This document shows, piece by piece, positions 1-46,528 of a stretch of DNA of 64,000 nt. Within the stretch, counting starts at the first letter, position 1. The number at the start of each line of letters is the position of its first letter. The stretch lies in the NCBI GenBank assembly GCA_000004985.1, contig GG738901.1. The stretch is one strand, 5' to 3'. The notes under the pieces were generated by a model, which was not told where the DNA came from, did no database searches, and worked only from the letters and a program-made list of their open reading frames with translations. The translations under genes were made by a program, and so were the position numbers. Source of the stretch: Naegleria gruberi (taxonomy: Eukaryota).

Positions 1-1998
1 GGTCTAATATCTCTTACATAATTAGCTTTAAATTTCCAAAAAAGTGCTTCATAATTTCCAATTGTAGTTAATAATGGAATTAAATTAGAATTTGAATCAA
101 TTGCAATTGAACTATATCTTTCTAAAAATTTAACCCATCTTGTATAACATGTTAAAAATCCATTATCAAATACTAAATTACCAGATATGGCAATAAATTT
201 AGGATTATATTTAGTAATTGCTAATTTTAGTAAATTAAATGCATTATCATTATATCCAAATTCAGATGATTGAATAAAATTTAAATTATTATTATTTATA
301 TTATTTGAAAATGTTTTAAATTGTTTTAAATTTGAATAAATTGGTTCACTTCCATTTATAGTAATCATTCCAACTTTAAAATTATAAATAGTATTTTCAT
401 TTAAATTTGTTAAAATACAAGTATGTACATATCTTGATACTAATTCAGTTTCAATTTCATTTAAATCTTGAAAATTACAATTAATTGTTTCATTTACCAT
501 ATTTGTATTATTAATTACTATAAATGATAAAATAGGTCTAGATTGAGTAAAAAATTTAATAATAAATTCATTTTGTGGTTTTTCATTTAATAATAAAGTT
601 AAACTACAAATATTATCAGAATTACAAATATTCTTTCCTTCTTTGGAATTTACATATCTGGTAAATGTTGTTGAAAATTCAAATTCATTTAAACAAATAC
701 AACTTCCATAAAAAAATGATGTTAATACAACTGTTATAATCATACTAATTATTAAATATATTATAAATATTATAAATCTTGTTGTAATTCCATATTGTAA
801 TGATTTTAAATAAATAAATAAAAAATTATATTTTTTTATATTTTTTTTATTTTTTATATTATTATTTAAATTATTTTCATTATTATTAGATAAATTATTA
901 TTTTCATTATTATTTTCATTAGATAAAATAGATAAATCTAATTTAGGAATAGGTGGTCCATCAATAATTGAAAATTCTAATTGTTGATGTAATTCTTCCT
1001 TTTTTAAAATTACTTTTTTAGAACGTTGTTTAGTTAATGGATTTTCACTTTCCATATTAGTATTATTATTATTATTATTATTATTTAAATGTATAGTTTC
1101 ACCTAAAACAGGTGTTGATACAGTAGTAGGTGTCATTGAAATTGCAGAATTTGTTACAATATTATTTAAATTATTATTTTGTAATTCAAATTCCTGATTT
1201 GTATTATTATTTAAATTATTATTATAATTAGGATTATATTCTTCATTGACTTGAATTATTTCTAAATTTGATTGATCAATAATATTTAAATTATTTAAAT
1301 CTTGTTCATTTTGTTGTAATTCTTCTTGATTTGAATTTGACATTTTGTCATTATTAATTGATAATTCTAATTGTTCATTATCTAAATCATCAATTGATTG
1401 TAATTTATCATTAATTAATCTATATCTAACACCATGTATTACTATTATTATTGTTAAAAATAAATTAATTGAAATACCTGCTCCCCAATGTAAATATTGA
1501 ACTATATTTTTTTTTTAACACACATTTTACAATAAATATTAAATATTAAAATAAATATTAAATATTAAATATTAAATATTAAAATAAATATAATAACTTA
1601 CAAGCAACAAGAGATGAAATATAAGTAATTAAAGCATAAACAATAAATAATAAAAATAAATTTTCAATAAAATATAAAATTTCCATTCCTAGCCAACATT
1701 TTACATTTTTAGATAAATTACAAGTAAATTCTTCCTTTTCTTCTTCATAATTAAATGGATCAAATTGTAATATTGTTGAAATTCCTTTTATATCATTTTC
1801 ATTTAATTGTTTATTATTATTATTATTATTACTATTTATAGAAGATAATCTAATTTGTTTTTCTTTTTTTTGTAAACAACATCTAATAATTAATATAATA
1901 AAATATAATATTATAAATATTATTAAAATAGCAGAACTAAATACAATAGATAATAAATAAACTGTAAAATTATTAGATTTAAATAAATCTTCAATCAT
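1..1998 (-). CDS. multi-pass membrane protein with a downstream metallophosphoesterase-like (purple-acid-phosphatase-like) region; partial, 3' end runs off the window edge
   Basis: Exon 1 is track ORF 1579-1998 (hydrophobic TM-like stretches, poly-N). A GTAAGT donor at about 1601 and an ATAG acceptor at about 1502 define a roughly 100-nt intron. Its removal gives ..LVA-F-QYLHWGAG.., and the frame then stays open on the minus strand down to position 1. That part is absent from the track because there is no stop codon inside the window. The downstream part has Y.F.VG and GN(Y)E-like motifs only loosely reminiscent of purple acid phosphatases. Confidence 0.5.
1531..1592. repeat. imperfect (AATATTAAAT)n microsatellite inside the intron of the first gene
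   Basis: Direct reading shows about 6 tandem copies of aatattaaat/aaaataaat. Confidence 0.7.
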
Positions 1999-2447
1999 TT
2001 ATAATTGGAATATATATTGTTAACAATATGATGATTATGATATGATGATATTATTATTAGGAATGATGATGATGAAATAATGATTGTGAAATGATGTGAT
2101 GATATTTTTTTTGTGAATTTTGGATGATTTTTGACATTTGATGATAACAACGACTATTATCTAAATCGTTCACAGTTATGAGCGAACAACTTTGAAGAGA
2201 GAAAGGAAATGAAGGAATTTGTTTCTAATACAAAGTTCTATTATCAAGTTCTTCTTGAACACTAATTTATTACAATGAAATAACATTTACATGCAAATTC
2301 ATCACTCAATACTTTTGTTTAATATCAATAACATTAACATTAACATCATTATCATGTCAATAACAATAATAATAAAAACAACAATCAAAAAATAAATTTT
2401 ATCCATTTCATTTCAAATATATATAAATTTATTTCAAATATTTAAAT

Positions 2448-3482
2448 TTACTTTTTTGTAATTAATAAAGATAAATCATTTTCATCAATAAAATAATTAT
2501 TATTACAATAATCACAAGTAGATTCAAAATGAATTTTTTCACCATTTACAATTTCATTTCTCATTTCAATTAATTCATTTACATTTATAGTATTTAAAGC
2601 ATTTAAAATTAAATCTTTTGAACATCTACAATAAAAATCAATTGGTTTATATCTAACTGTTTCTAAATTTTCATTAATTATAAAATTATAAAATAAATTA
2701 TCATGTACATCTTGTCTATTATTAATTTTTTTAATCATTTCATTTAATTTACTTTTATAGTAATTTAATTCTTCTGATAAATCTTCACTTGATGGTAATT
2801 TTTGTATAATTATTCCAAATGATATTGGATCTAATCCAAATTCTTGTTTACATACTAAACTTGTTACTGTTGGTATTTGTTCAGATTTTTCAAAGAATTC
2901 TTCAAATGTATTATTTAAATTACTAAATTCAGAATTATCTAAAATAAGTGGTAATGATGATGTTACTGGTTTGGAATGATTCATTAAAATTTTAGAAACT
3001 GAAAATATATCATTCTGTTCATCATCACCTTGATCAAATTTAACAAATCCTCTAATTTCACCTACTTGAATACTTTCAACATGTACATAATTAATTAAAT
3101 TATTATTATTATTAATATTATTATTATTATTATTATTATTATTACTACTATAATTGGATGTATTATTGGATAAATTAATTATATTTGAATTTGAAATGAA
3201 TAATTCTAATTTAATTCTTTCTTCACCTTTTAATAAAGAAGATAATAACATTGAAGCACTCATTGATTGTCCCATTAAATTAATTGCTTTAAAATCATGA
3301 GTACTTGAATGAGGATTTAAATTAAATTTGTTAATAAAGGTTTTTAAACAATCACTACTATCTATTAAACTAACTCTAAATTTACCACAATCAGACATGT
3401 AACTTTTTACATAATCTCTCACTCTCTTTCGGAGCATTTTGGTACCACTTGCTGCATTTAATACATAGTGTGAGGTTTTCAT
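2448..3482 (-). CDS. hslO: Hsp33-family redox-regulated chaperone (HslO-like), single exon
   Basis: 344-aa ORF. The C-terminus has the Hsp33 zinc-centre signature CRC..(about 30 aa)..CDYC (CxC-x(27-32)-CxxC). The N-terminal domain resembles the Hsp33 fold. A basic N-terminus may be a targeting peptide. There is an internal poly-N insertion. Confidence 0.7.
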   Translation of the reverse strand: MKTSHYVLNAASGTKMLRKRVRDYVKSYMSDCGKFRVSLIDSSDCLKTFINKFNLNPHSSTHDFKAINLMGQSMSASMLLSSLLKGEERIKLELFISNSNIINLSNNTSNYSSNNNNNNNNNINNNNNLINYVHVESIQVGEIRGFVKFDQGDDEQNDIFSVSKILMNHSKPVTSSLPLILDNSEFSNLNNTFEEFFEKSEQIPTVTSLVCKQEFGLDPISFGIIIQKLPSSEDLSEELNYYKSKLNEMIKKINNRQDVHDNLFYNFIINENLETVRYKPIDFYCRCSKDLILNALNTINVNELIEMRNEIVNGEKIHFESTCDYCNNNYFIDENDLSLLITKK

Positions 3483-4214
3483 TTTTTTCGAATCACCAAG
3501 CCTTTATCCAATTACCTAGGAGACGGTTTTGCCATAATCATTAATTTAATTTTAACATAATTTGCTCATAATCAAACCAGAATACACCATAATTTTGACG
3601 TAATTTTCCCGCAATAAAAACCAAAAAAAATACACAATCACATCATAATCTCTTCGGAATTATCATATAATTATACAGCAATTCACAACCGGATTTGTCA
3701 TTTCCAGGCAAAAATATTGGATTTATTACGGATATTATTACGAGGTAATTATTAATTAAATTACGTAATAATTGTATTAACATTATGAATTTAATATGGA
3801 ATAATTATGTAAATATATTGGAATAATTATTACAGAATTTACGATAGATTTTTGACCTAATTATTTTATAAAATTATGAAATATATTTAATTTTAATTGA
3901 ATTTGATTTATTTGATTATTTACAGTAAAGCAAATTACACAGAAACTAACAAATATTGAAACAATGGGAACTGTACAAAGGGAAATGACTGTAGTTTCTG
4001 TTGTTGCAACAGATGAACATGAAGATGAAAGAGTTATGTGTTGGAATTGAGTGAATTGACTGTGAAGTGACTCCAAAGGCAACAGAATTAGTTGACCAAT
4101 TAACTAAGGAAATTAATATTCAATATTGAATTATTGAATTATTGAAAAATTGAAAACTTCAGTGTAACTTACGTGATTGTGGAATTAAATTTGGAAATTA
4201 ATTAAATTCGGAAA

Positions 4215-4947: not shown

Positions 4948-5910
4948 ATGATCAATTTTGAATACAAACAAGAAGATGGATTTGCAGCAATTTCATTTGA
5001 GAATAATTTGAAATTGTTGTTGAAAGATCAAGCAATCACAAAACACATGTGCTTAACACGAAATGAATATTTTGAAAAAAAGAATATACAAAAGAAAGAA
5101 AATCAACCTTACTTTTCAAAAATATTTGGTGAATACCTTGCTAAATGCCCTGAAGATGCATTTCCATTTCTAGTTTTAGAATATTTTGATGATTTTGCTA
5201 AATTCAGAACAAAAACCAAGTCAACATGCGCCTCCTATTTCACAAGTTACAATTTTGATTCAGATTTCATGTCAAGTTTAAGCGCAATTCGTGTAAACGG
5301 TTTTTCATGGAGTAATGAAGGATTTTGGAAAATGACTGATTCAATTATTCAAGATTTTGAAAATCATGATGGTAAAATCATTACAGTGAAACATCCAACC
5401 ACAGGAGAAGATATTAAGCTATTCATTTGCTGTATGGGATTTTTATTAGATACACCTGAAAGATTGAAATGTTTAGCACTTATGAAAAATGAATGTTCCA
5501 GATGTTTAGATGCGTCAGACAACCTTGACAAAACACCAACAGATTTAATGGGTGCATCCGCGTTTAATCCAACATGTGTACACACATTTAAAAGGAGAGA
5601 ACATTCAGAAATGAAAGATATTGTTGAGAAATTATCAGAATTACCTAAAATTGCGGATTCTAAACAAAATAGAATTGCAAGGAAAGGTGTAAAAGAACAA
5701 ACTTGGGAAGAAGAGAGATTCAAAAGTAAGCAAATGTCAACAAACAAAAGAAAACAATTGATGAATCAATTAATTGTCAAAACATTCATCAAATCAAGAT
5801 TTGTTACTCAAATAATGATAGATCCGTATCGTAGATCTGTAGTTGATTTCTTTCATTTAGAAATTCAAGGATTATTTCGAAAACATCTCAAATTACTTGT
5901 ACAAGCATAG
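4948..5910 (+). CDS. transposase-like protein, N-terminal part (320 aa), truncated by the gap
   Basis: Track ORF. It is Cys-rich (FICCMGFLLDTPERLKCLALMKNECSRCLD) and ends directly at the N-run. Confidence 0.4.
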   Translation: MINFEYKQEDGFAAISFENNLKLLLKDQAITKHMCLTRNEYFEKKNIQKKENQPYFSKIFGEYLAKCPEDAFPFLVLEYFDDFAKFRTKTKSTCASYFTSYNFDSDFMSSLSAIRVNGFSWSNEGFWKMTDSIIQDFENHDGKIITVKHPTTGEDIKLFICCMGFLLDTPERLKCLALMKNECSRCLDASDNLDKTPTDLMGASAFNPTCVHTFKRREHSEMKDIVEKLSELPKIADSKQNRIARKGVKEQTWEEERFKSKQMSTNKRKQLMNQLIVKTFIKSRFVTQIMIDPYRRSVVDFFHLEIQGLFRKHLKLLVQA

Positions 5911-5960
5911 NNNNNNNNNNNNNNNNNNNNNNNNNNNNNNNNNNNNNNNNNNNNNNNNNN
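5911..5960. other. assembly gap (50 N)
   Basis: Run of n characters. Confidence 0.98.
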
Positions 5961-40070: not shown

Positions 40071-41294
40071 ATGAAACGAAAGCACGAAGAATCTCCTTCA
40101 CAATCCAACAAGCAAACAAAAAGAAAGAACGGAAAGGAAGAGGATGCTGAACGAAAGACCTGGAGTTACACTCCATTTGTTCCCTACTCGAGCAACAATT
40201 TGACCGTGTGTGAGAAAGGCGTTCTAGATGCTAAAAAGCACATTTATGTAGAGCAAACGAATTTTATTTCAGACCACTTTGTTAAGGCATTGCAGAAGAA
40301 ATCCTTCTTCTCCTTCCAGGGTTCTCCAAATAGTGGGAAGAGTTCAATGATATTGAACAGCATTATTCCAATGATTAGAGATAATAAGGAAAATAATAAT
40401 TATTTGCTTCTCTATGTTGATTTGGCTGTGGTCATGAAGGATTGGGTTATTAAAAAGACTGGTGGCAGTGTGAGTTTCCAACACTGCTTTATGGATTATG
40501 TGTTGAAGAAGTTGAGATCACAAGCAAGTGTTCCTCAATCCATTTTAACTCTCTTCTCCCTCAATTCTCCTTATTGTCAAGAATTGCGTAAGAGTATTAT
40601 TCTTTTCATGGATCACGCGGATGATATTCATAAACTTCCCTATGAAGAGAGAAGAACCTTTGTTGAAAGTTGGTTAAGAATATCAGAAACTAGAGTTCAG
40701 TTCAGCTTGTTTAGCATTGTTGTTATTGGAAACTCTGTCATTCGTCCATTTTCCATAAGAGATGAAGAAAAGAACATTATGGTTTCTCCATTCTGCAAGC
40801 ATGCCTTTGTTCCATACTTTTCCAGAGATGAGCTCGTGCATTTCACAAAGCAATTTCTAAACATTCCAATAACAATGGAAATTATTGACAGAATCTATGA
40901 AAGATACACCTATGGACACATTGGACAATCTATCATTATGCTCAAATACTATACCTATCTTTGGGAAGGTTGCAATCCACCATCTAACGTAGAAGAATGG
41001 GAATATGACATTCTTTCAGATAATTTTTGGGAATTCTTGAAAAATGATTCATTCCATGCCAAGATTTTCGAATCATTATCAAATGATAAATTGATGGAAC
41101 CTTTAATTCGTTGGTTAAAAGACGAAAGAGAAGGAAGAGGTTTGAATCTTGACTTGTCAATTGAAGATCAACTGGCACGAATTGGAGTAATTCAATTGAG
41201 TCAAAAAAGATTTCATTTGACTTCTCATTTGATGAGAGATTTGGTGGAAACTGCTTATACAGAACCTCCACAATTATCTACTAATGTGATTTAA
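40071..41294 (+). CDS. hypothetical P-loop NTPase (Walker A GSPNSGKSS) with a basic N-terminus, 407 aa
   Basis: Track ORF. The Walker A motif and a hhhhD-like Walker B (LLLYVDLA) are visible by eye. Confidence 0.45.
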   Translation: MKRKHEESPSQSNKQTKRKNGKEEDAERKTWSYTPFVPYSSNNLTVCEKGVLDAKKHIYVEQTNFISDHFVKALQKKSFFSFQGSPNSGKSSMILNSIIPMIRDNKENNNYLLLYVDLAVVMKDWVIKKTGGSVSFQHCFMDYVLKKLRSQASVPQSILTLFSLNSPYCQELRKSIILFMDHADDIHKLPYEERRTFVESWLRISETRVQFSLFSIVVIGNSVIRPFSIRDEEKNIMVSPFCKHAFVPYFSRDELVHFTKQFLNIPITMEIIDRIYERYTYGHIGQSIIMLKYYTYLWEGCNPPSNVEEWEYDILSDNFWEFLKNDSFHAKIFESLSNDKLMEPLIRWLKDEREGRGLNLDLSIEDQLARIGVIQLSQKRFHLTSHLMRDLVETAYTEPPQLSTNVI

Positions 41295-42176
41295 AAGTGC
41301 TGTCTACGTTTTAATCGAATAAACATTTTATTTTCAAAGTTAGTGAGATTCGTATTTTGTTGATCATGTATTATCATTACATGAACGTTTAGTTAATGGA
41401 AGAGAGGAAAACTTTAACACATTCTTAATCTGACAGATTAGACAATCATCATTCAAATAGATTATTCCTTCTTTTTAAGAATCTTTCCAATAATTTCTGA
41501 GCACTTTGATCTGAAACTGGACTTTTTCTTTGATAGCGAATCTAACGAATATGAAGATGATTGAGCAGACGAAACTTGACAATCTTCAAAATTCCATCCG
41601 AAATCTGCCATTGGTGCAATAGTCAAATTTGAGGTTGACTTGACATCTCTCTTGGTAATTTGCTGTTTAGTTAAAGAGGATGATCTTCTTTGAAGAATGT
41701 TTAAAGATTTTCTATTGTTATTCGAGGTCATTAGAAATTGGCTCTTAGTTATTCGATTCTGAACTAAAGTTGTTTTTTTTCAAAGTGTTGTGTAGATTTA
41801 TGACGTTGGGCATGGATTCTTATATCTTATTTCGGCAGGCGAAACATGCAATTGGGAACTGAAGCATGATATGTATGTTGAGAAAGGAAGGGTATTTCTA
41901 TGGCGTTGCGATATGAGTTCAGCTTTGGTAAACAATGTCCATGCATGTTGAGAGCGTTTCAACATCATTGACAAAGTTTAGGTAGAAATCGAATAATAAC
42001 GATGATAATTATTAGCTTGAGCTACTCGATTAGGGCCATGAAAAGCATGTGCTTGTCCAAGTAAAGAGTTTTATTGGAATTGTGGTTCACGAAAGTTAGA
42101 GAAACCAATAAATCAAGAAGAGTACTGTTTGAGAAATCAGGAGAAAAGAAACTAATGAATTTATTCGAAACTATGC

Positions 42177-43007
42177 TCATTTATTGTCATTTATCACAAA
42201 TTGCATTGGGTTCCTCAAGTAACTATCACAAAAATCTTGTACTTCTTGATTGAGTTTCGAATAACCTACCACCAATTGACAATGCTTTATATTTTGCCCA
42301 AATAACAATTCTAAATCTTCTCTAAAACCATATTCTAAAGTTAAATCCAAAAAATCCATTACAATCATTTTAACCTTTGAAAAATCAATCAAATTCTGGT
42401 TGACCAAATATGAAATATATCCAGCAGTTCCAACCAAAACTTTAGCTCCATAAATATGTCTAGCCATTTCAGTTAAACTCGATCCACTGACACAGGTGCA
42501 CACTTTCACACTCAAATCCTGAGAAATGTGATTCAACATGGATGAAATTGAAAGAGCTAGTTCTCTAACCGGAAGTATTACAATATATTCAATGGTCAAT
42601 TGAGTATTCTCTTGGGAAGGAGTTGAATTTTTTGATAATTTATCCAAAATGGCAATTGAGTAACAAAGATGTCTCAATATTGGTGTTTGAATAGACACAT
42701 CAATAGGTGGATCGGAGGAAATTAATGGCCAAATAACTTGTTTGTCAACTTGATTGAGCTCAAATTCTTTCAATGCCGAAAGTAATTCACTTGATAAATT
42801 CAATTCATTGAAGGAAGTAATAATTTTTGGTAAATACTTTGGTTTGGTATTGATCTTGGTTTTTAATAGATCATAGTGATGAGAACTGGTGCATAATTTA
42901 TCAATTGTCGCTACTTGGTCATCATTGGCAAAATCGAAAACTGCAACTCGAACTTGTTCCATTTTTTCAACTTTGAAATGCAATTCAACAATTTTCTTCA
43001 ATTGCAA
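42177..43007 (-). CDS. degenerate DEAD-box helicase N-terminal (RecA1-like) domain protein, 276 aa, lacking Walker A and DEAD
   Basis: It is collinear with DEAD-box motifs. There is a Q-motif-like F..L.L..ELL.AL. Motif Ia is present (ILPVRELALSI). Motif Ib is GTAGYISYLV. The motif II position reads MDFLD, not DEAD. At the motif I position it has QTPILRH instead of AxTGSGKT. A stop follows the domain, so there is no second RecA domain. Confidence 0.5.
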   Translation of the reverse strand: MQLKKIVELHFKVEKMEQVRVAVFDFANDDQVATIDKLCTSSHHYDLLKTKINTKPKYLPKIITSFNELNLSSELLSALKEFELNQVDKQVIWPLISSDPPIDVSIQTPILRHLCYSIAILDKLSKNSTPSQENTQLTIEYIVILPVRELALSISSMLNHISQDLSVKVCTCVSGSSLTEMARHIYGAKVLVGTAGYISYLVNQNLIDFSKVKMIVMDFLDLTLEYGFREDLELLFGQNIKHCQLVVGYSKLNQEVQDFCDSYLRNPMQFVINDNK

Positions 43008-43164: not shown

Positions 43165-43323
43165 TTAATAATTGCTTCCGCACTTTCCACAAGCAGCTGA
43201 ATTACCTGACTTGACTGGAGTACCATCACCTAAATTTCTCTTACATTGCTTACACATGGCAGTACCACATGCCTTGCAGCTGATTTTATCTGAGGAACCA
43301 CATCCACTTGACCACTTGCACAT
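43165..43323 (-). CDS. candidate small cysteine-rich protein (52 aa, four CxxC/Cx5C pairs)
   Basis: The minus-strand ORF is MCKWSSGCGSSDKISCKACGTAMCKQCKRNLGDGTPVKSGNSAACGKCGSNY*. It is absent from the track because it is under 60 aa. Its composition is coding-like. It overlaps plus-strand track ORF 43172-43366, which looks non-genic. Confidence 0.3.
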   Translation of the reverse strand: MCKWSSGCGSSDKISCKACGTAMCKQCKRNLGDGTPVKSGNSAACGKCGSNY

Positions 43324-45139: not shown

Positions 45140-46528
45140 ATGATTGAAAAGCCAACACTTAATGTTGTCTTCGTGGGACATGTTGATGCTGGAAAATCGA
45201 CACTGGCAGGGAGATTGTTGAATGCTCTCGGGACAATTAATAATGGAATTATTGATAGGCTTAGGAATGAATCCACGAGAGCGGGAATGGCATCGTTCCT
45301 TTATGCTAATGTGTTGAGTAGAACAAAGGATGAAATAAAGATAGGAAGAACCATTCAAATAGCCCACAGTAGAGCGGAAACTAAGCATTATTATTTGAAT
45401 ATTATTGATGCTCCAGGTAAATTTAACAGATTTAATTTTAATAATTATTCGAAATTTAATTATTGATGATCAAACTTTAATATTTAAATTTTGAATTGAT
45501 AAATAGTTGGATCTTTTATGAAAAGTTTGATTAGAGGAATATCACAAGCTGGAGTTGCCATAATAGTCTTGGATGCTGAAACTGGAGCATTTGAAGCTGG
45601 AATTCAATCAGTTAGACAGACATTAATTATGACAAAAAGTATGGGAGTGATTCAATTGATATTTTGTGTCAACAAGATGGATAGCAGGTTTTTTAATCAT
45701 TCAAAAGATAGGTTTGCAGAAATTAAAGATGAAATTACTAGAATAGCAAAGAGAGCTGGGTATATAGCAGAACCTTTATTCATTCCAGTTTCAGCTTGGA
45801 ATGGATGGAATATATTGGAGCCAGCAGACAAGTTCAGTTGGTTTAAAGGGCCTACACTTCTTGATGCTATTAATGCACTAAAACCACCAACCTATCATTC
45901 TGAAAAGCCTTTGAGAATACCTATTTTGGAGGTTTATAATTTGGAAGGTGTAGGAACTGTAGTTTTTGGAAAAATTGAATCAGGAACTTTAAAATTGGAT
46001 ACTAAACTGAGATTCACAAATGGAAAAAAGAAAATTACTGATGGAACTGTTGGCTCAATAGAGATTTTTAGAAAATCTGTCACTGAGGCAAAAGCTGGAG
46101 AAATGGTGTCAATCAAACTAGAAAATGTAAATTATCAAGATTTGAAAGCAGGTATTATAATATCAGATGCTGAAAATAATCCTGCTCGAGAGGTTGTTTC
46201 TTTTGAGGGTGAGATTGTAATTGTGAAATGCCCTGGTGTTATTAAGCCATCATACAAACCTACCTTCCATTGCTATACATTACAAACAAGATGTAAATTT
46301 AAACAGCTTTTAGAAACTTCCAAGATGCCTGATAGGTCTGAAAAGGAGGAAAATCCAACAGAGCTTAGAACAGGAAGGTTTGCAGTAGTTCTATTCGAAC
46401 CAGATCATCCTTTCTATATTGAGCCATTTGAAACTTTCCCTCCATTTGGAAGGTTTGTAATTAGAGATAATGGACATGTAACATGTGTTGGAATTGTTAA
46501 AAAGGTCAATTACGAGACAGAAAATTGA
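45140..46528 (+). CDS. EF1A/Hbs1/eRF3-family translational GTPase paralog, 2 exons (about 45140-45416 and 45507-46528); the catalytic His of DxPGH appears replaced
   Basis: G1 is GHVDAGKST and NKxD is NKMD, with beta-barrel domains II and III downstream. The G|GTAAAT donor and AAATAG acceptor (90-nt intron) give ..NIIDAPGVGSFMKSLIRG.., compared with EF1A ..IIDAPGHRDFIKNMITG... There is no N-terminal extension. Confidence 0.7.

What the first reader, a model, noticed from the sequence alone, without database searches (positions are those of the whole stretch)
42177..43007. Stand-alone degenerate DEAD-box RecA1-like domain (no Walker A, DEAD replaced by DFLD)
The 276-aa ORF is collinear with the Q, Ia, Ib, II and III motifs of DEAD-box helicases. 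It has lost GSGKT and DEAD and stops right after the first RecA domain. It looks like a helicase-derived non-catalytic RNA-binding or scaffold module.
Basis: seen in the sequence. Interest (0 to 1): 0.5.

Follow-up and report, generated by a model that had tools for sequence, protein, structure and literature searches.

The report
Truncated, catalytically dead eIF4A copy
This Naegleria gruberi gene encodes only the first half of the translation helicase eIF4A, with its ATP-binding residues destroyed; it is a folded "pseudo-helicase" with undescribed relatives in related amoebae and an unknown role.

Summary
The real gene is 42177-42962 (-), ATG start, 261 aa, = N. gruberi XP_002672000 / NAEGRDRAFT_72909. 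Residues 45-258 are a confident DEAD-box RecA1 fold closest to eIF4A. Walker A GxGKT is PILRH, DEAD is DFLD, SAT is GYS and the Q-motif Gln is Asp. Ia survives (PVRELA) and Ib is TAGY. The protein stops in the RecA1-RecA2 linker. No RecA2 coding sequence exists in the 64-kb window.

New here: it is a truncated duplicate of the heterolobosean lineage's own eIF4A. It carries that lineage's 3-residue insertion before motif I (SSDPPIDV) and scores best against heterolobosean eIF4A. Similar stand-alone copies exist in N. gruberi (NAEGRDRAFT_72190), Willaertia magna (at least two distinct paralogs) and one environmental contig, with graded motif decay. This gene is the most decayed, and no close ortholog was found.

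Host-like codon usage, an intact ORF and 49 of 53 conserved core positions still hydrophobic argue for a folded pseudoenzyme rather than a dead gene. The function is inferred only: ATP-independent binding by occupancy, as in the single-domain pseudohelicase Cms1. It is a new variant of a known kind, of moderate interest.

The parts
42177..42962 (-). Single-exon coding sequence, 261 codons plus TGA stop (NAEGRDRAFT_72909, XP_002672000.1, UniProt D2VV68)
   Evidence: ORF. 100% match to the N. gruberi protein. Translation verified. Codon-usage log-likelihood is 0.246 bits/codon in frame and negative in the other five frames.
42831..42962 (-). N-terminal tail, residues 1-44, predicted disordered; weakly resembles the N-terminal tail of heterolobosean eIF4A
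   Evidence: pLDDT about 49-52 for residues 1-40. tblastn with P0188 eIF4A aligns from its residue 1 to window 42938. The resemblance is not significant by BLASTP on its own.
42189..42830 (-). RecA1-like (DEAD) domain, residues 45-258
   Evidence: Pfam PF00270. Collinear with the eIF4A N-terminal domain. pLDDT mostly above 90. Foldseek top hits 5zbz/2g9n/7ddx/1qva.
42738..42755 (-). Q-motif remnant NQVDKQ (Asp73 at the invariant Gln column); the preceding 'GFE' of GFExPSxIQ is deleted
   Evidence: Alignments; translation.
42696..42719 (-). SSDPPIDV: lineage-specific insertion before strand beta-1, shared with intact heterolobosean eIF4A (TTSEPPADV, ISSDPPSDV) and with the other stand-alone copies
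42669..42692 (-). Motif I (Walker A) remnant IQTPILRH in place of AQSGTGKT: both Gly lost, Lys to Arg, Thr to His
42555..42572 (-). Motif Ia, PVRELA (retained; canonical PTRELA)
42483..42488 (-). GG doublet reduced to SG
42417..42428 (-). Motif Ib remnant TAGY (canonical TPGR; Arg lost)
42345..42356 (-). Motif II remnant DFLD (canonical DEAD; catalytic Glu to Phe)
42258..42266 (-). Motif III remnant GYS (canonical SAT)
42177..42179 (-). Stop codon, placed in what is the RecA1-RecA2 linker of eIF4A
41295..42176 (.). 880-bp stretch between this gene and the convergent gene ending at 41294; holds no recognisable RecA2 coding sequence
   Evidence: Stops in all three minus-strand frames. tblastn with eIF4As finds only noise. 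The RecA2 HMM scores at most 0.3 bits.

Best explanation
Shown: this is a real, single-exon N. gruberi gene for a stand-alone RecA1 domain. It descends from the heterolobosean translation initiation helicase eIF4A by duplication and loss of the RecA2 half. It resembles other truncated eIF4A copies in Naegleria and Willaertia and is the most decayed of them. The Walker A glycines, lysine and threonine, the Q-motif glutamine and the DEAD glutamate are all replaced. Motifs IV-VI, including the motif VI arginines, are absent with RecA2. Inferred from established DEAD-box mechanism: it therefore should not bind or hydrolyse ATP, and it cannot form the two-domain clamp that holds RNA. The fold has been preserved by selection, because the hydrophobic core pattern is intact even though most residues have changed. 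Inferred, not shown: it acts as a non-enzymatic binding module that works by occupancy. It would bind a protein or RNP site that recognises the N-terminal domain of eIF4A, or a newly acquired partner, and so compete with or tether other factors. The single-domain inactive helicase-fold protein Cms1 is thought to work this way on pre-ribosomes. I lean to a protein or RNP partner rather than free RNA. The partner is unlikely to be the eIF4G secondary interface.
For: Identity and fold. Stand-alone architecture. The same truncation point occurs at independent loci (L001, L002, L003, L014). Descent from heterolobosean eIF4A: the intact W. magna eIF4A P0186 and environmental eIF4As P0187 and P0188 share the insertion SS[DE]PP.DV. 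P0001 scores 103/99/94 bits against these, 72-83 against the fungal and other canonical eIF4As tested, and 69-84 against the other stand-alone copies. Real gene, not drift: codon-usage score of 0.246 bits/codon lies within the 0.09-0.48 range of 20 window ORFs, GC1/2/3 matches, and P(ORF by chance) is 1e-9. Hydrophobic residues are kept at 49 of 53 conserved core columns, against a permutation mean of 22.8 (p<5e-5), with only 38% identity there. [quoted passage not shown] Utp25 is a validated pseudohelicase (PMC9539457).
Against: There is no expression, proteomic or interaction evidence. Exact-product look-ups returned nothing, which is uninformative because the N. gruberi genome record itself is not in that index. 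No close ortholog turned up among 1.84 billion representatives or in a JGI metagenome contig scan, so purifying selection on this particular gene could not be measured by dN/dS. Known eIF4A N-domain partner contacts are not conserved: eIF4G secondary-interface R35 is Ser and E43 lies in a deleted tripeptide. The isolated eIF4A RecA_N does not detectably bind eIF4G (PMC3064780). The core-pattern test is partly circular, because alignment follows hydrophobic pattern.
Confidence: 0.55

Rival explanations
1. Evolutionary relic: a truncated eIF4A duplicate with no present function, still open by recency or luck, annotated as a gene only because the ORF is intact.
For: It is the most diverged member: 27-29% identity to every relative. 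The nearly invariant ATP-contacting residues are replaced, apart from the two Asp of motif II. No close ortholog appeared among the best 150 hits of the 1.84-billion-representative search or in the JGI metagenome scan. There is no literature or expression record.
Against: About 72% amino-acid divergence without a single stop or frameshift in 261 codons, at 7.6% stop probability per random codon. Codon usage and GC by codon position are typical of neighbouring genes. 92% of core positions remain hydrophobic, the same as in active helicases, despite only 38% identity there. Truncated copies are retained in at least two genera and several paralogs.
Confidence: 0.25
2. Mis-modelled gene: the ORF is only the first exon(s) of a normal two-domain DEAD-box helicase whose RecA2 exons lie downstream.
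For: N. gruberi has introns (about 0.7 per gene, PMC5862402). A GTGATA lies just before the stop.
Against: tblastn with six eIF4A-like queries and with the W. magna and P0188 eIF4As hits only residues 1 to about 238 in the window. The positive control L013 gives all 407 residues. A 118-sequence RecA2 profile against all six frames of the 64 kb scores at most 0.3 bits. The only N run in the window is at 5911-5960, 36 kb from the gene. The next gene downstream is convergent. Paralogs in W. magna and elsewhere end at the same place. Without motifs I and II a second domain would not restore a helicase anyway.
Confidence: 0.03
3. Split helicase: the RecA1 protein pairs in trans with a separately encoded RecA2 protein to rebuild an ATPase.
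For: None direct; it is only conceivable from the architecture.
Against: Walker A glycines, lysine and threonine, the Q-motif Gln and the DEAD Glu are gone, so no ATP site can be rebuilt. No RecA2-only gene is adjacent in the window or in the related loci examined (L001, L002, L003, L014). The rest of the genome could not be searched.
Confidence: 0.03

Closest known systems
Canonical eIF4A of Heterolobosea (e.g. Willaertia magna ABK040_000708, 407 aa, P0186; N. gruberi XP_002676412 per PMC5862402)
   Same: Homologous over residues 1 to about 238. Same RecA1 fold. Same lineage-specific insertion SS[DE]PP.DV before motif I. Motif Ia retained.
   Different: No RecA2. Q, I, Ib, II and III are degenerate. 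Only 27% identity. It therefore cannot be an ATPase, RNA clamp or helicase. eIF4G primary-interface domain is absent and secondary-interface residues are lost (plus the alignment).
Cms1 / CMSS1 (Pfam PF14617), 90S pre-ribosome factor
   Same: [quoted passage not shown] It acts non-catalytically by binding and competition (PMC9715914).
   Different: A different family with an independent origin. P0001 gives no PF14617 hit even at E up to 10. Cms1 is conserved from yeast to human (PMC9715914), whereas this gene is lineage-specific and derived recently from eIF4A.
Utp25 / Def pseudohelicase
   Same: A DEAD-box-like fold whose helicase motifs are degenerate and dispensable (PMC9539457).
   Different: Utp25 keeps both RecA-like domains and is an essential, conserved SSU-processome factor. 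This protein has one domain and no known complex.
Other stand-alone eIF4A RecA1 copies: N. gruberi NAEGRDRAFT_72190 (P0004), W. magna ABK040_014602/011445 and ABK040_007789 (P0027/P0152, P0185), environmental P0019; separately Entamoeba marina KAL7719283 (P0014)
   Same: Same truncation point within a few residues. DEAD domain only. Heterolobosean insertion present, except in the Entamoeba copy. ATPase motifs decayed to varying degrees.
   Different: The others are less decayed: GSGRT/DEAD/SAT in P0019, GTGKT/DQLD in P0027, GTSKT/DEFE in P0004. Identity to P0001 is only 27-29%. Whether they share one truncation event is unresolved. None has been described in a paper.
Isolated eIF4A N-terminal domain constructs (PDB 1qde, 1qva, 2g9n)
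   Same: Same boundaries and fold; these are the best structural matches.
   Different: They are laboratory fragments of an active enzyme and still bind nucleotide. Here the truncation is natural and the nucleotide site is destroyed.

Membership tests
DEAD-box RNA helicases (SF2, DDX) | RecA1 domain homologous to Pfam DEAD (PF00270) | tested here: met
   E=6.6e-15, 55.7 bits against a cut-off of 26. Fold confirmed.
DEAD-box RNA helicases (SF2, DDX) | Second RecA-like domain (Helicase_C, motifs IV-VI) | tested here: not met
   The protein stops in the linker. No RecA2 appears in the window by tblastn or by profile.
DEAD-box RNA helicases (SF2, DDX) | Q motif (GFxxPTxIQ with invariant Gln) | tested here: not met
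   Asp73 sits at the Gln column and the GFE tripeptide is deleted.
DEAD-box RNA helicases (SF2, DDX) | Motif I / Walker A AxxGxGKT | tested here: not met
   IQTPILRH.
DEAD-box RNA helicases (SF2, DDX) | Motif Ia PTRELA | tested here: met
   PVRELA.
DEAD-box RNA helicases (SF2, DDX) | GG doublet and motif Ib TPGR | tested here: not met
   SG and TAGY. The Thr and Gly are kept; the first Gly, the Pro and the Arg are lost.
DEAD-box RNA helicases (SF2, DDX) | Motif II D-E-A-D | tested here: not met
   DFLD.
DEAD-box RNA helicases (SF2, DDX) | Motif III SAT | tested here: not met
   GYS.
DEAD-box RNA helicases (SF2, DDX) | RNA-dependent ATPase / unwinding activity | not testable with these tools
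   Needs biochemistry. Predicted absent from the motif states.
eIF4A subfamily (by descent) | Closest sequence and structure relatives are eIF4A rather than other DDX subfamilies | tested here: met
   The A2 family profile scores eIF4A-I 1.6e-49, eIF4A-III 5e-45 and DDX6 1e-35. Single-sequence and fold searches also put eIF4A on top.
eIF4A subfamily (by descent) | Heterolobosean eIF4A signature insertion before motif I | tested here: met
   SSDPPIDV compared with TTSEPPADV / ISSDPPSDV in intact heterolobosean-type eIF4As. It is absent from fungal and other eIF4As.
eIF4A subfamily (functional eIF4F subunit) | eIF4G-binding surfaces (primary in RecA2; secondary R35/E43 in RecA1) | tested here: not met
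   RecA2 is absent. The R35 position is Ser and E43 falls in the deleted tripeptide (alignment; residue roles from PMC3064780).
Cms1/CMSS1 (PF14617) | Architecture: one inactive helicase-fold domain, no Walker A, no DEAD box, no second RecA domain | tested here: met
   description of Cms1 in PMC9715914.
Cms1/CMSS1 (PF14617) | Sequence membership in PF14617 | tested here: not met
   The Pfam scan at E up to 10 returns only PF00270.
Utp25/Def pseudohelicase | Two degenerate RecA-like domains; Utp25 family signature | tested here: not met
   One domain only, and no Pfam hit other than PF00270.
Heterolobosean stand-alone eIF4A-N-domain copies (group proposed here) | Ends within the RecA1-RecA2 linker, DEAD domain only, carries the heterolobosean insertion | tested here: met
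Heterolobosean stand-alone eIF4A-N-domain copies (group proposed here) | Common origin from one truncation event (monophyly) | tested here: inconclusive
   The NJ tree groups Ng P0001 with P0004 at 39% bootstrap and adds W. magna at 22%. Each copy scores best against intact eIF4A, and the W. magna copies score best against W. magna eIF4A. This fits either independent truncations or fast divergence.

The most novel reading that the evidence does not exclude
Free-living amoebae (Heterolobosea, and independently Entamoeba marina) have repeatedly kept truncated, ATPase-dead copies of the eIF4A N-terminal domain as a previously unrecognised class of translation-initiation regulators. These would act as mimics of the eIF4A N-domain that titrate an eIF4A-binding factor or an mRNP site.
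Probability: 0.15. Interest if true: 0.6.

Novelty: new variant of a known kind. Interest (0 to 1): 0.35.

Why it matters
If functional, this would be a natural example of the first RecA domain of a translation helicase being kept as a non-enzymatic module after its ATPase partner domain was lost. The series of less decayed paralogs documents the order in which helicase motifs decay once RecA2 is gone. It would add an eIF4A-derived, lineage-specific case to the short list of pseudohelicases (Utp25, Cms1). It would also point to an unknown layer of translation control in Naegleria, a genus that includes the pathogen N. fowleri. Practically, the UniProt automatic name 'ATP-dependent RNA helicase' for D2VV68 and D2VT65 is almost certainly wrong. 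Published counts of one eIF4A homologue in N. gruberi overlook these copies.

Tried and rejected
(1) Word-indexed homology searches returned almost nothing beyond self. The index is lossy: it missed W. magna proteins that were in the query alignment. I therefore drew no conclusion about N. fowleri or N. lovaniensis.
(2) Exact-product look-ups for P0001 (261-aa and 276-aa forms) and for P0004 found nothing. This is uninformative about expression.
(3) The JGI metagenome scan for close relatives of P0001 gave only generic DEAD-box genes at 25-33% identity. L005 is a full-length DDX6-like gene.
(4) The viral contig scan with the family profile found nothing. A giant-virus origin was considered and has no support, because the insertion ties the gene to the cellular eIF4A.
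(5) The afdb50 fold library was unavailable.
(6) Small-HMM comparisons and an NJ bootstrap tree could not resolve whether the stand-alone copies are monophyletic.
(7) I considered an origin by duplication of exon 1 only, because contig L012 shows an intron (AAGCAG|GTATGT) about 8 codons after the truncation point. I rejected it as a general explanation. L012 is 52% GC, so it is not Naegleria, and the W. magna eIF4A gene is intronless.
(8) The eIF4G-decoy idea is disfavoured. The isolated RecA_N does not bind eIF4G by ITC, and the two ionic contact residues are not conserved here.
(9) An early reading that the P-loop itself is shortened by two residues was dropped. The length difference lies at or near strand beta-1, and its placement depends on the alignment.
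(10) The N-terminal 44 residues look like the eIF4A N-tail by eye, but this is not significant by BLASTP.

Full report
**Where we are.** The window is Naegleria gruberi nuclear DNA. The ORF product is 100% identical to the 'predicted protein' XP_002672000.1 / EFC39256.1 (NAEGRDRAFT_72909, UniProt D2VV68). Neighbouring genes are ordinary eukaryotic ones: an F-box/LRR protein, an intron-split EF-Tu/eEF1A-like GTPase and a rhomboid. GC content is about 33%.

**The observation.** The mechanical ORF 42177-43007 (-) starts at a TTG. The first ATG, at 42962, gives the 261-aa public model. Pfam reports only DEAD (PF00270, 6.6e-15). The best solved relatives are the yeast and human eIF4A N-terminal domains, collinear over residues 45-258.

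I verified each motif by translating its coordinates:
- Q region: NQVDKQ, with Asp where the invariant Gln sits. The 'GFE' just before it is deleted.
- Motif I: IQTPILRH instead of AQSGTGKT.
- Ia: PVRELA, kept.
- GG: reduced to SG.
- Ib: TAGY.
- II: DFLD.
- III: GYS.
- C-terminus: RNPMQFVINDNK*, which aligns to RDPIRILVKKEE in the inter-domain linker of intact eIF4A.

AlphaFold2 with an 88-sequence alignment gives mean pLDDT 84.7 and pTM 0.83, with a confident RecA fold for residues 45-258 and a disordered N-terminal tail. Foldseek against the PDB returns eIF4A DEAD-domain structures first, with target-normalised TM 0.85-0.88.

**Is it really stand-alone?**
- Downstream on the minus strand, 880 bp separate the stop from a convergent gene. 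This stretch has stops in all frames.
- tblastn with eight full-length eIF4A-like proteins hits only their residues 1 to about 238 in the window. The same query recovers all 407 residues at its own locus, which serves as the positive control.
- A profile built from 118 eIF4A RecA2 domains scores at most 0.3 bits in any of the six frames of the whole 64 kb.
- The only assembly gap is 36 kb away.

**What it derives from.** An exhaustive HMMER search of 1.84 billion representatives found no close relative. The next hit has E=6e-19 at 21% identity. Among the top hits, however, were several short, DEAD-only proteins:
- a second N. gruberi protein, NAEGRDRAFT_72190 (P0004);
- near-identical Willaertia magna proteins (P0027, P0152);
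- an environmental one (P0019);
- one from Entamoeba marina (P0014).

A search seeded with the W. magna protein added a further W. magna stand-alone paralog (P0185, 63% identical to P0027). It also found the intact 407-aa W. magna eIF4A (P0186) and related environmental eIF4As (P0187, P0188).

The intact heterolobosean-type eIF4As carry a three-residue insertion before strand beta-1 (TTSEPPADV, ISSDPPSDV). Fungal and other eIF4As lack it. The window protein has SSDPPIDV at that position, and the other stand-alone copies have it too. Each heterolobosean stand-alone copy scores best against these intact eIF4As. For the window protein the scores are 103/99/94 bits against them, 72-83 against the fungal and other canonical eIF4As tested, and 69-84 against the other stand-alone copies. 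A family profile matches eIF4A-I best, ahead of eIF4A-III and DDX6.

The gene is therefore a truncated duplicate of the lineage's own translation factor eIF4A. The Entamoeba copy shows no such affinity. It is hemmed in by a convergent gene 300 nt downstream, so it is an independent case.

**A decay series.** All copies stop within a few residues of the same linker position, at separate loci with unrelated neighbours. Their ATPase motifs are progressively eroded:

| Copy | Motif I | Motif II | Motif III | Other |
|---|---|---|---|---|
| P0019 | GSGRT | DEAD | SAT | |
| P0027 | GTGKT | DQLD | YSL | |
| P0185 | CTGKT | DQLD | FSG | |
| P0004 | GTSKT | DEFE | FSQ | Ib TPGT |
| Window protein | PILRH | DFLD | GYS | Ib TAGY |

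ATP hydrolysis in DEAD-box proteins needs RecA2, so these motifs lose their purpose once RecA2 is gone. That step is inference from established DEAD-box mechanism. Whether there was one truncation event or several is unresolved.

**Gene or relic?**
- The in-frame codon-usage score is 0.246 bits/codon. This lies inside the range of 20 long ORFs in the window (0.09-0.48), and the other five frames score negative.
- GC at codon positions 1/2/3 is 0.40/0.29/0.27, against 0.40/0.32/0.26 for those genes.
- A 261-codon open frame has probability about 1e-9 at local composition.
- At 53 alignment columns that are hydrophobic in at least 85% of other DEAD-box proteins, the window protein is hydrophobic at 49. 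The permutation mean is 22.8 (p<5e-5). That matches the 92-98% seen in active helicases, although only 38% of those residues are identical to the consensus.

This pattern of many substitutions with the fold preserved is what a selected pseudoenzyme shows and what a drifting pseudogene does not. Two caveats apply. The test is partly circular, because alignment follows hydrophobicity. It also says nothing about the very recent past. I could obtain no expression evidence and no ortholog for a dN/dS estimate.

**How it most likely works.**
- Shown: the residues that bind and hydrolyse ATP are replaced, and without RecA2 there is no bipartite RNA clamp, so neither activity is expected.
- Inferred: it is a folded binding module that acts by occupancy.
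- The literature gives a close functional analogue. [quoted passage not shown] It crosslinks to 18S rRNA H32-H34 and is proposed to compete with Enp1-Rrp12 (PMC9715914).
- Utp25 is a validated two-domain pseudohelicase (PMC9539457).
- The window protein is not a member of either family.
- An eIF4G-decoy role is unlikely. The isolated eIF4A RecA_N shows no detectable eIF4G binding, and the secondary-interface residues R35 and E43 are Ser and deleted here (PMC3064780; alignment).
- Canonical RNA contacts are weakened, since the Ib Arg and the first Gly of GG are lost, and the protein is acidic (pI 5.4).
- I therefore lean to a protein or RNP partner, inherited from or newly evolved on the eIF4A N-domain surface. 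This step is speculative.

**Novelty and verdict.** Neither this gene nor its paralogs appear in any searchable paper. A eukaryote-wide survey counted a single eIF4A in N. gruberi (PMC5862402). Pseudohelicases as a kind are known, including the single-domain architecture (Cms1). What is new is an eIF4A-derived, lineage-specific set of them with a visible decay series. I rate it a new variant of a known kind. Interest is moderate (0.35), because function is unproven and this particular copy is an orphan that may be on its way out.

Noticed in passing
42177-42962 (-) and the paralog NAEGRDRAFT_72190 (not in the window): UniProt/UniRef automatically name both proteins (D2VV68, D2VT65) 'ATP-dependent RNA helicase'. 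Given the motif states and the missing RecA2, that name is almost certainly wrong.
   Followed up: yes
L002 3622-4920 (+), immediately upstream of the W. magna stand-alone copy at 5001-5708: The co-oriented gene 80 nt upstream of the W. magna eIF4A-N-domain copy carries Pfam PF01358 (PARP_regulatory, the poxvirus VP39-type poly(A) polymerase regulatory subunit / cap 2'-O-methyltransferase family, from my own knowledge). A cap-related, virus-typical enzyme next to an eIF4A fragment may be coincidence or a link.
   Followed up: no
L011 3001-3687 (Entamoeba marina JAUKTS010000011): This is an independent stand-alone, degenerate eIF4A-like RecA1 gene (228 aa; GTQRT, DEIE). It is boxed in by a convergent tRNA-synthetase gene 300 nt downstream, so the truncation theme recurs outside Heterolobosea.
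   Followed up: partly
L009/L010 1578-2756 and 3001-4176: An unidentified eukaryote in a metagenome carries two tandem full-length eIF4A-like genes. The second (P0050) has partly degenerate motifs (SGLGKT, TAGR, DEID, FSS) and only a weak Helicase_C match. This could be an earlier stage of the same kind of decay.
   Followed up: no
43165-43323 (-): A small Cys-rich ORF (52 aa, MCKWSSGCGSSDKISCKACGTAMCKQCKRNLGDG...) lies 200 nt upstream of the gene on the same strand. It has no Pfam hit and could be a small metal-binding protein or noise.
   Followed up: partly
45140-46528 (+): An EF-Tu/eEF1A-like GTPase is split into two ORFs (45140-45466 and 45518-46528). An AT-rich intron of roughly 90 nt begins at the GTAAAT near 45418 and ends at an AG just before 45518. 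The Pfam scores are weak for a canonical eEF1A, so it is probably a divergent paralog.
   Followed up: partly
40071-41294 (+): The convergent neighbour is a 407-aa protein with a P-loop-like GSPNSGKSS but no Pfam family at E<=0.01.
   Followed up: no
41462-41731 (-): An 89-aa Ser/Lys-rich ORF sits inside the 880-bp gap downstream of the gene. It has no Pfam hit and no similarity to RecA2.
   Followed up: partly
1-4000 and 5911-5960: The first 4 kb of the window are very AT-rich (GC 17-22%, against about 32% elsewhere). A 50-N scaffold gap lies at 5911-5960.
   Followed up: no
P0003, P0007, P0010, P0016, P0018 (fungal, nematode, plant and trematode proteins among the hits): Several annotated proteins contain two to four tandem, partly degenerate eIF4A-type RecA1 domains. 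They may be tandem gene arrays fused by gene prediction, or real repeats.
   Followed up: no
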